DNA of 64,000 nt, from positions 291,442-355,441 of the forward strand of contig NW_019217976.1 in the NCBI RefSeq assembly GCF_002571385.2, read 5' to 3'. Each line of letters starts with the position of its first letter. Within the stretch, counting starts at the first letter, position 1. The stretch comes from Stylophora pistillata (Eukaryota). The notes beneath the pieces are model-generated. The model was not told the DNA's origin. It worked only from the letters and a program-made list of their open reading frames with translations, and ran no database searches. Below, one piece after another: positions 54,301 through 55,175 of the stretch. The translations under genes were made by a program, and so were the position numbers.

Positions 54301-55175
54301 TGGAGAATATGCATGCTGATGTTACGGTGTATGAGGTACAGCACCGAAAAAAGTCCTAATTGTTGTCAGATTTGCATAATATTGCATTGTCTGGTGCATG
54401 TTTTTTAAAAAAAGATAATTCATCGAAAATAGATTCGTGCTGAGTTACTAAGAAGTATCTTTCTTCACAGCAATGGATGAAGTTCACTGAAGTGACCACT
54501 GAACAACTCGACCGCGCCAGATCAGAGATTGCTGCTCTTCAAGAGCGACTGGGTTCCAGCCTTCCCGACAGACCTCTCGAACAAATCAAAGACATGAAAA
54601 CGACTGTCAAGGACATAATACAGTAAGAGAGATGACCGGAAAACTCCATTATTTTGCTAGAATTTTGTAGGAGACATGGAAGAAAACGTCAACATGGAAC
54701 TTGGGTCTTGATAAATAAACACAAAATAACTAGTCTGATTTCGTGGCCCACCTTGGTTTTCGCTATAAAATAACTGAACATATGAGAACTATCTACAGTT
54801 AACAGGTCTGTATTTTTTTTCTGTCCTCTTAGGTCCCTGAAAGAATCCCTGAAAGTTAAACTGCAACAACTGCAACCCGAGGAGCCTGAGCCAACAGAAA
54901 CTCCTGTCAGCGGCGAACCCAGCGAGAGCCCTGAAATAGAAGAGCCTGAGCCGACAGAACTTCCGTTCAGCGGTGAGCCCAGCGAAGCTCCAGTCACCGA
55001 AAGCAATGCCGCAGAGGAGGAGGAGGAACAGAAAAGAGAATCCAATCTTTTCTCGCGTATCCTATCCGACCGCAGAAGACGCAGAATGAAACAGATCTTG
55101 AAGCACGGAAGATCCTCCTTGTGGAAGTTGTGGAAAAAGAGCAGAGGACTTCACTCTCTGAAAAGTCAGCCCTAA
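51327..55175 (+). CDS. Secreted amphipathic alpha-helical repeat protein (apolipoprotein/LEA-like), ~808 aa; exons 51327-51344, 51529-51535, 52009-53915, 54471-54622, 54833-55175
   Basis: 656-codon open frame rich in E/K/A/Q with 29- and 40-aa repeats, and a hydrophobic N-terminus ILTAVLTILSSKVFA. Donor GAG/GTCAGT at 53915, acceptor TTCACAG at 54470, donor CA/GTAAGA at 54622, acceptor CTTAG at 54832, all phase-compatible through to TAA at 55175. The first two exons are inferred. Confidence 0.85.

What the first reader, a model, noticed from the sequence alone, without database searches (positions are those of the whole stretch)
54833..55175. Hidden last exon: acidic spacer, convertase sites and a 29-aa cationic peptide fused to the helical repeat protein
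Seen (absent from the ORF track): ...QPEEPEPTETPVSGEPSESPEIEEPEPTELPFSGEPSEAPVTESNAAEEEEEQ-KR-ESNLFSRILSD-RRRRR-MKQILKHGRSSLWKLWKKSRGLHSLKSQP*. The final 29 aa (55086-55172) have 8 K/R, no D/E, and an LWKLWKK amphipathic core. Established: signal peptide plus acidic pro-piece plus dibasic/furin site plus cationic C-terminal peptide is the usual precursor layout of antimicrobial peptides and cnidarian toxins. Inference: a two-part secreted system in which a large lipid-binding carrier releases a membrane-active peptide. Alternatively the basic tail is an uncleaved ApoE-like receptor/heparan-binding segment. I do not recognise this architecture as a named family.
Basis: partly seen in the sequence, partly recalled or inferred. 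Interest (0 to 1): 0.72.

Follow-up and report, generated by a model that had tools for sequence, protein, structure and literature searches.

The report
Coral lipid-binder with clippable basic tail
A strongly expressed coral gene makes a long helical protein, likely secreted and likely fat-binding, that ends in a very positively charged tail behind likely cutting sites; the tail probably anchors the protein to cell surfaces or mucus until it is clipped, though it could instead be freed as an antimicrobial peptide.

Summary
RNA reads confirm both GT..AG junctions (273 and 387 reads in X23, 522 and 717 in X24; contigs from four more studies), the frame and the tail. The tail is a 55-aa Pro/Glu spacer (net -17), KR, 11 aa, RRRRR (the protein's only R-X-K/R-R motif) and a 29-aa end (+8).

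The body is a 483-aa, Pro-free run of 29/40-residue repeats with the class A amphipathic layout of apolipoproteins. It fails the apolipoprotein family tests (no Pro-punctuated 22-mers, under the Pfam cut-off).

Against the antimicrobial reading: the 29-mer has no Cys or amidation signal, is 31% hydrophobic, and its amphipathicity does not clearly beat shuffles (367 of 5000). KR is not special either: 12 more lie in the body. The gene is single-copy.

No orthologue was found, but those searches missed even the protein itself, so conservation is untested. The signal-peptide exon is inferred only.

Best reading (0.4): a secreted lipid carrier with a furin-removable basic anchor, working like SOD3 or apoE. 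A released defence peptide is the main rival (0.3). Nothing functional is shown.

The parts
49183..49231 (+). Putative first coding exon: most of a signal peptide, phase-1 donor GTAAGT
   Evidence: Sequence only. Most hydrophobic of 30 ATG..donor candidates in 40000-52000 and in the phase that joins exon 2 without a stop. Junction not tested with reads.
52048..53915 (+). Large coding exon 2 (acceptor at 52009, 52021 or 52048; model of 816, 812 or 803 aa)
   Evidence: 664-aa open frame 51984-53978; three in-phase acceptors; donor after 53915 read-confirmed.
52185..53633 (+). 483-aa array of fourteen 29- and 40-residue repeats; continuous class A amphipathic helix, 3.63 residues per turn, no Pro or Cys
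   Evidence: Single-sequence model almost all helix, pLDDT 66.8, pTM 0.23.
53634..53915 (+). 94-aa non-repeated helical segment with 4 Trp and the only N-glycosylation sequon; same class A layout
54471..54622 (+). Coding exon 3 (51 codons)
   Evidence: Both junctions read-confirmed; single copy in G000.
54833..55175 (+). Coding part of the last exon (the finding)
54873..55037 (+). 55-aa Pro/Glu/Ser/Thr spacer, net -17, 11 Pro, built from a 60-nt internal duplication; ends EEEEEQKR
   Evidence: 47 nt, 83% alike, spacing 60. Mostly without secondary structure in the model, helix from about 55002 on.
55032..55037 (+). KR pair, candidate convertase site
   Evidence: not unique, 12 more KR in exon 2.
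55038..55070 (+). 11-aa piece between the two basic sites (net -1)
55071..55085 (+). RRRRR, the only R-X-K/R-R (furin consensus) in the protein; mixed CGC/AGA codons
55086..55172 (+). 29-aa cationic end (+8, 3459 Da, 2 Trp, no Cys, no amidation Gly); holds one XBBXBX pattern (WKKSRG; pattern recalled as a heparin-binding consensus)
55515..55537 (+). AATAAA and main poly(A) site; a longer 3' end also occurs
   Evidence: Depth falls after about 55524; A-tail behind 55537 in an X2 contig; X5 and X7 contigs run past 55900.

Best explanation
The gene encodes an ~800-residue protein, likely secreted, whose long class A amphipathic helix likely coats lipid as exchangeable apolipoproteins do, and whose polybasic end likely anchors it to sulfated glycans or receptors until a furin-like protease likely clips it at RRRRR. 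Shown: splicing of exons 2-4, strong expression, the helix periodicity and charge layout, the spacer, the basic sites and the tail. Inferred: secretion (exon 1 from sequence alone), lipid binding, cleavage, and the anchor role. The Pro/Glu spacer would hold the basic end off the lipid surface and keep the site open; partial cleavage would set the share of tethered and free carrier, as in SOD3.
For: Repeats: within 45 degrees of the face centre 83% of residues are hydrophobic or Ala; at 45-90 degrees 46% are K/R and 1% D/E; at 135-180 degrees 65% are D/E. D/E lie on average 62 degrees further from the face than K/R (0 of 1000 polar shuffles reach this; also in the first 138 residues alone and in the non-repeated segment), against 15 degrees in a coiled-coil control from the same genome. 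This is the class A definition in PMC7279153 (passages), which also describes apoE binding heparan sulfate through basic residues. Best PDB sequence matches are apoA-IV (E 5e-5, 8e-5) and a three-helix bundle (3 hits). RRRRR is the sole furin consensus and follows the only long Pro-rich stretch. SOD3 is a precedent for a C-terminal polybasic heparin-binding region that furin removes (PMC12774472, passages). The gene is single-copy and strongly expressed, roughly 480-670 reads per kb per million at its 3' end (inflated by 3' bias).
Against: No binding or cleavage was measured. In SOD3 the basic cluster itself is the binding site; here 29 residues with their own charge and two Trp follow it, more than an anchor needs. 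The acidic run plus KR resembles toxin and antimicrobial propieces (PMC6025637; PMC4306955). A single-sequence model runs one helix across EEEEEQKR and RRRRR (pLDDT 72-84), which could shield both sites. Met and Lys follow the fifth Arg, which I recall as less favourable for furin. Class A layouts also occur in group 3 LEA proteins (recalled), and the top Atlas neighbours were LEA and perilipin-4 clusters, at 0.76-0.78 and below the level that counts. No orthologue was seen.
Confidence: 0.4

Rival explanations
1. One reading: convertases free the 29-mer (or the 45-mer behind KR, +12) as a linear, Cys-free host-defence peptide; the acidic spacer neutralises it during transport and the helical body is a carrier or large propiece.
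For: Signal peptide, acidic region, basic site and cationic end is the layout of damicornin (PMC4306955) and of the polychaete BRICHOS peptides, whose propiece holds a whole domain (239-aa precursor, 33-aa peptide; PMC6265681). EEEEEQKR resembles the propart motifs quoted in PMC6025637. Two sites in tandem favour release. Residues 1-18 of the 29-mer have a hydrophobic moment of 0.51 and charge +6. The 7-mer LWKLWKK also occurs in an AI-designed peptide with MIC 2-16 ug/mL (PMC12203862), which shows a type, not kinship.
Against: No Cys, no amidation Gly, 31% hydrophobic, GRAVY -0.99; the designed peptide is far more hydrophobic. Amphipathic order is matched by 367 of 5000 shuffles. About 770 residues are made per 29-mer. 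There is one gene copy and no family of variants. KR-E occurs 9 times in the body. The toxin propart motif sits right behind the signal peptide, here at residue 750.
Confidence: 0.3
2. The tail is a lineage-specific appendage without a specific task; the protein works as a LEA- or apolipoprotein-like membrane or lipid protectant and the end is trimmed or ignored.
For: No relative of the tail in any search, while the neighbouring GPCR has relatives at 90, 84 and 80% in the same database. No signal in two runs laid at 80% likeness.
Against: The protein searches did not even return this protein, so they lack power. The tail has coding-like third-position GC that drops at the stop, no match to body DNA that would point to a frameshifted repeat (94 of 300 shuffles score as high), and a charge-plus-furin combination seen in 0 of 504 chance 45-mers.
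Confidence: 0.2
3. The whole chain is a granin-like or polyprotein precursor, cut at its many KR pairs into amphipathic peptides, or a secreted material whose assembly is triggered when the basic end is removed.
For: 12 KR pairs recur in register in exon 2, and the repeat body is acidic (net -22).
Against: In 8 of the 11 body KR pairs measured, K and R sit at about -60 and +45 degrees, on either side of the hydrophobic face, which is the structural place of basic residues in a class A helix. No Pro or Gly-rich linkers open these sites. The comparison with granins is recalled, not tested.
Confidence: 0.1

Closest known systems
Exchangeable apolipoproteins (apoA-I, apoA-IV, apoE; PF01442) and apolipophorin III
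   Same: Class A amphipathic helices (definition in PMC7279153); weak sequence matches to apoA-IV; apoE also has a basic heparan-binding patch.
   Different: Repeats of 29 and 40 residues, not Pro-punctuated 22-mers; no Pro in 531 residues; about twice the length of apoA-IV (396 aa); Pfam 85.4 bits under the 90 cut-off; basic region is terminal and behind a furin consensus.
Extracellular superoxide dismutase SOD3, C-terminal heparin-binding region
   Same: Secreted protein whose C-terminal polybasic cluster is a furin site (PMC12774472).
   Different: No sequence kinship tested or expected; the body here is a helical repeat, and 29 cationic residues follow the site.
Damicornin and AmAMP1 (coral ShK-like antimicrobial peptides)
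   Same: Signal peptide, acidic proregion, dibasic site, cationic C-terminal peptide (PMC4306955; PMC11767717).
   Different: They have six Cys, and damicornin is amidated; this tail has neither and sits behind ~770 residues.
Hydra arminin; polychaete BRICHOS peptides (nicomicin)
   Same: Arminin: helical cationic C-terminal peptide. Nicomicin: short cationic peptide behind a large acidic propiece and a convertase site.
   Different: No BRICHOS domain or other Pfam match in the last exon; kinship to arminin not tested, the primary paper was not held.
Group 3 LEA proteins (PF02987) and perilipin-4 repeats
   Same: Long E/K/Q/A-rich amphipathic repeats; units differ by an 11-residue block; nearest Atlas clusters.
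   Different: Pfam 48.6 bits under the 51.1 cut-off; Atlas scores 0.76-0.78 are leads only; repeat units are 29 and 40; a signal peptide and a cleavable tail are predicted here.

Membership tests
Exchangeable apolipoproteins (PF01442) | Class A amphipathic helices | tested here: met
   62 degrees against 15 in a coiled-coil control; 0 of 1000 shuffles
Exchangeable apolipoproteins (PF01442) | 22-mer repeats punctuated by Pro | tested here: not met
   Units of 29 and 40; 0 Pro in 531 aa; lag 22 not among the 25 best lags; feature from PMC7279153
Exchangeable apolipoproteins (PF01442) | Pfam gathering score | tested here: not met
   85.4 of 90 bits on exon 2; the model also rings in 11 of 14 control prokaryote genomes
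Exchangeable apolipoproteins (PF01442) | Secreted (signal peptide) | tested here: inconclusive
   Exon 1 inferred from sequence; no signal-peptide predictor run, junction not tested with reads
Exchangeable apolipoproteins (PF01442) | Reversible lipid binding | not testable with these tools
   Needs a vesicle-clearance or flotation assay
Group 3 LEA (PF02987) | Tandem 11-mer motif and Pfam score | tested here: not met
   48.6 of 51.1 bits; identity at lag 11 only 0.23, main lags 167, 98, 69, 138, 40, 29
Damicornin/AmAMP1 coral antimicrobial peptides | Acidic proregion, dibasic site, cationic C-terminal peptide | tested here: met
   feature from PMC4306955
Damicornin/AmAMP1 coral antimicrobial peptides | Six Cys in the mature peptide | tested here: not met
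   0 Cys in the tail, 1 in the whole model, in the signal peptide
Damicornin/AmAMP1 coral antimicrobial peptides | C-terminal amidation Gly | tested here: not met
   Chain ends SQP-stop
Linear cationic helical antimicrobial peptides (arminin-like) | Cationic amphipathic helix | tested here: inconclusive
   +8, moment 0.51 over 18 aa, but 367 of 5000 shuffles reach it; 31% hydrophobic
Linear cationic helical antimicrobial peptides (arminin-like) | Released in vivo and kills microbes | not testable with these tools
   No peptidomics or assay data found
Cnidarian toxin or minicollagen proparts | Acidic run ending in KR directly behind the signal peptide | tested here: not met
   EEEEEQKR is alike in kind but lies at residues 751-758; motif from PMC6025637
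SOD3-type furin-removable heparin-binding end (works-like, not a family) | C-terminal polybasic cluster holding R-X-K/R-R | tested here: met
   consensus from PMC12774472
SOD3-type furin-removable heparin-binding end (works-like, not a family) | Heparin binding and cleavage shown | not testable with these tools
   Bench work needed

The most novel reading that the evidence does not exclude
Stony corals make a two-in-one secreted precursor: a 500-residue lipid-coating helix that carries, and after convertase cleavage releases, a linear Cys-free cationic antimicrobial peptide. This would be a precursor type in which the propiece is itself an apolipoprotein-like carrier, coupling lipid export (for example into mucus) to control of the microbiome.
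Probability: 0.25. Interest if true: 0.7.

Novelty: new variant of a known kind. Interest (0 to 1): 0.4.

Why it matters
Corals move large amounts of symbiont-derived lipid between tissues, into eggs and into mucus (own knowledge), and my paper searches turned up no secreted class A helix carrier in corals (listings only). An abundant one with a removable anchor would be a concrete handle on that traffic. If the freed tail is a defence peptide, it would add a Cys-free linear type to the few stony-coral peptides listed in the review read (damicornin, AmAMP1). Each part has precedents in other animals; the combination is what looks new, and its conservation is untested.

Tried and rejected
Orthologues: none found, and the negatives are weak. 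The word-based protein search gave 0 hits for the last exon (148 candidates, 199-2000 aa) and 0 for the end of exon 2 (400 candidates, 342-1089 aa). Neither returned this protein itself, although the neighbouring GPCR and 61 relatives are in the database. Fragments under 199 aa were not searched. Exact look-ups of 7 exon or ORF translations of this gene: 0 of 7 in the collection. Metagenome contigs: 593 and 79 pattern matches, 0 confirmed. Atlas: nothing for the last exon, leads under 0.8 for exon 2. The full HMMER search of representatives never ran because the queue was full. Runs X21 and X22 gave 0 contigs at 80% likeness, which is no proof of absence.

Paralogues: one decayed 227-nt piece only. 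The 12 PF01442 matches outside this gene fall on 10 contigs; loci from 9 of those contigs were translated (L022, with 5 stops, was left out). Those that printed an ORF were simple repeats, coiled coils or another gene type; L021 and L024 printed none under my filter.

Folds: single-sequence models of low confidence (pTM 0.29, 0.23); Foldseek found 0 matches for both; the tail has 0 PDB sequence matches at E 10. Pfam DUF883, YtxH and DUF7605 pass their cut-offs on exon 2; I read them as matches of composition and helix period.

Frameshift origin of the tail from the repeats: not supported. Wrong frame or assembly error: rejected.

Print: of three tail motifs searched, one 7-mer occurs in 2 papers, both for one designed peptide; four motifs gave 0 hits in the one supplement held for PMC11820242. 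The primary damicornin and arminin papers were not held. Supplements of coral proteome and single-cell papers, and of preprints, were not seen and may list this protein. Earlier findings of the scan: 6 look-ups, 3 unrelated notes.

Full report
Setting. The window is G000:C193:291442-355441 of a 398-Mb genome. RNA runs that hold the stretch are labelled coral metagenome or organism A, and the best named relatives of the neighbouring GPCR are Montipora proteins, so this is a stony coral. The finding is the last coding exon of a + strand gene between a C2H2 zinc-finger ORF and that GPCR.

Observation. The translation, the counts (8 K/R, 0 D/E in 29 aa) and the coordinates are as stated. Raw reads join 53915 to 54471 in 273 (X23) and 522 (X24) reads and 54622 to 54833 in 387 and 717 reads, both GT..AG. 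Contigs of X2, X5, X18 and X7 show the same joints: 6 of 8 runs laid, 5 studies. No indel at 3% or more lies in the coding last exon, and the only listed variant there is Glu to Lys in the spacer in X24. Depth falls after the AATAAA at 55515. A rough count gives 480-670 reads per kb per million for the 3' 1156 exonic bases, inflated by 3' bias and some intron-repeat reads; the gene is abundant.

Gene model. An upstream exon at 49183-49231 supplies a Met and a hydrophobic stretch in the right phase. It is the most hydrophobic of 30 ATG..donor candidates in 12 kb. Three acceptors give 803, 812 or 816 aa. This junction was not tested with reads, so secretion is inferred.

The body. Fourteen units of 29 or 40 residues span 483 aa; some 29-mers are 40-mers less an 11-residue block. 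The hydrophobic period is 99.1 degrees (3.63 residues per turn), so the stripe runs straight along the helix. There is no Pro in 531 residues, and net charge is -22. Basic residues flank the hydrophobic face and acidic ones sit opposite. The mean offset is 62 degrees, reached by 0 of 1000 shuffles of the polar residues, against 15 degrees (11 of 1000) in a coiled-coil control. It holds in the first 138 residues alone and in the non-repeated 94-aa segment. That is the class A helix of exchangeable apolipoproteins (PMC7279153, passages). Membership fails, though: no Pro-punctuated 22-mers, and 85.4 bits against a cut-off of 90 for a model that rings in 11 of 14 control prokaryotes. LEA_4 is also under its cut-off. 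It likely works like an apolipoprotein without being shown to be one; a LEA-like protective role is not excluded.

The tail. A 55-aa spacer (11 Pro, net -17, one 60-nt duplication) ends in EEEEEQKR; 11 residues later come RRRRR and the 29-mer. RRRRR is the only R-X-K/R-R in the chain. KR is not special: exon 2 holds 12 more, 9 of them followed by Glu. In 8 of the 11 measured, the pair straddles the hydrophobic face, so they look structural. The tail looks like maintained coding sequence: third-position GC 0.60, GC dropping to 0.34 behind the stop, no likeness to the repeat DNA (94 of 300 shuffles), and 0 of 504 chance 45-mers combine +12 with a furin motif (thresholds set after the fact). As an antimicrobial candidate it is middling: +8 (45-mer +12) and moment 0.51 over 18 residues, but 367 of 5000 shuffles match that, 31% hydrophobic, GRAVY -0.99, no Cys, no amidation Gly. 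A single-sequence model makes one helix across both basic sites and a second over SSLWKLWKKSR (pTM 0.29, weak).

Relatives. The gene is single-copy in G000 for each part searched, apart from a decayed 227-nt piece on C645 with two stops and no counterpart of exons 3-4 in the 20 kb fetched. No orthologue was found. The control shows that coral proteins are in the database (62 hits for the GPCR, its own protein included), yet searches did not return this protein.

Mechanism. Cleavage at RRRRR is likely if the protein is secreted (established furin consensus, quoted in PMC12774472, passages). What cleavage is for is open. I rank first (0.4) a lipid carrier with a removable basic anchor. The body is apolipoprotein-like, apoE binds heparan sulfate through basic residues, SOD3 loses a C-terminal polybasic anchor to furin, and a single-copy 800-aa chain is a costly way to make one 29-mer. 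Second (0.3) is the released defence peptide, supported by the layout shared with damicornin (PMC4306955, passages) and BRICHOS peptides (PMC6265681, passages), the propart-like acidic run (PMC6025637, passages) and the tandem sites. A tail without a specific role gets 0.2 and a KR-processed polyprotein 0.1. The first two are not exclusive.

Literature seen. Passages: PMC11767717, PMC11269664 (nothing bearing), PMC2652719, PMC12203862 and PMC13082390, plus those above. One supplement of PMC11820242 was searched, with 0 hits. Listings only. No description of this protein came up in those ten searches; most subscription papers and preprint supplements are outside them.

Verdict. A real, abundant, spliced gene with an unusual combination of known parts: a new variant of a known kind. 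Function and conservation are unproven. Interest 0.4.

Noticed in passing
G000:C645:144314-144555 (L003, L010): Decayed 227-nt copy (83% alike) of the last repeat of this gene, with two in-frame stops and no matching later exons in 20 kb.
   Followed up: partly
window 54200-54331 (intron 2): Short dispersed repeat: hundreds of unrelated transcript contigs and reads lay here with loose ends.
   Followed up: no
window 9955-13556, minus strand: LTR retrotransposon with reverse transcriptase, RNase H and integrase matches, split over several ORFs by stops.
   Followed up: partly
window 17475-17867, minus strand: Exon matching Vps53 N-terminal domain (PF04100, 26.6 bits).
   Followed up: no
window 58605-59642, plus strand: Single-exon rhodopsin-type GPCR with relatives across corals and anemones; used as database control.
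   Followed up: partly
window 55537-55900 and beyond: Two 3' ends: main poly(A) near 55537 and a longer form in X5 and X7 contigs.
   Followed up: no
G000:C366:231422-231898 (L027, L041): Another 29-residue amphipathic repeat (about 3.5 units), in a gappy region near ORFs that look like N-terminal domains of immune-receptor-type genes (label recalled); no signal peptide or basic tail seen.
   Followed up: partly
G000:C90:388698-389411 (L014): 334-aa open frame of a near-perfect 11-residue repeat; gene or satellite not determined.
   Followed up: no
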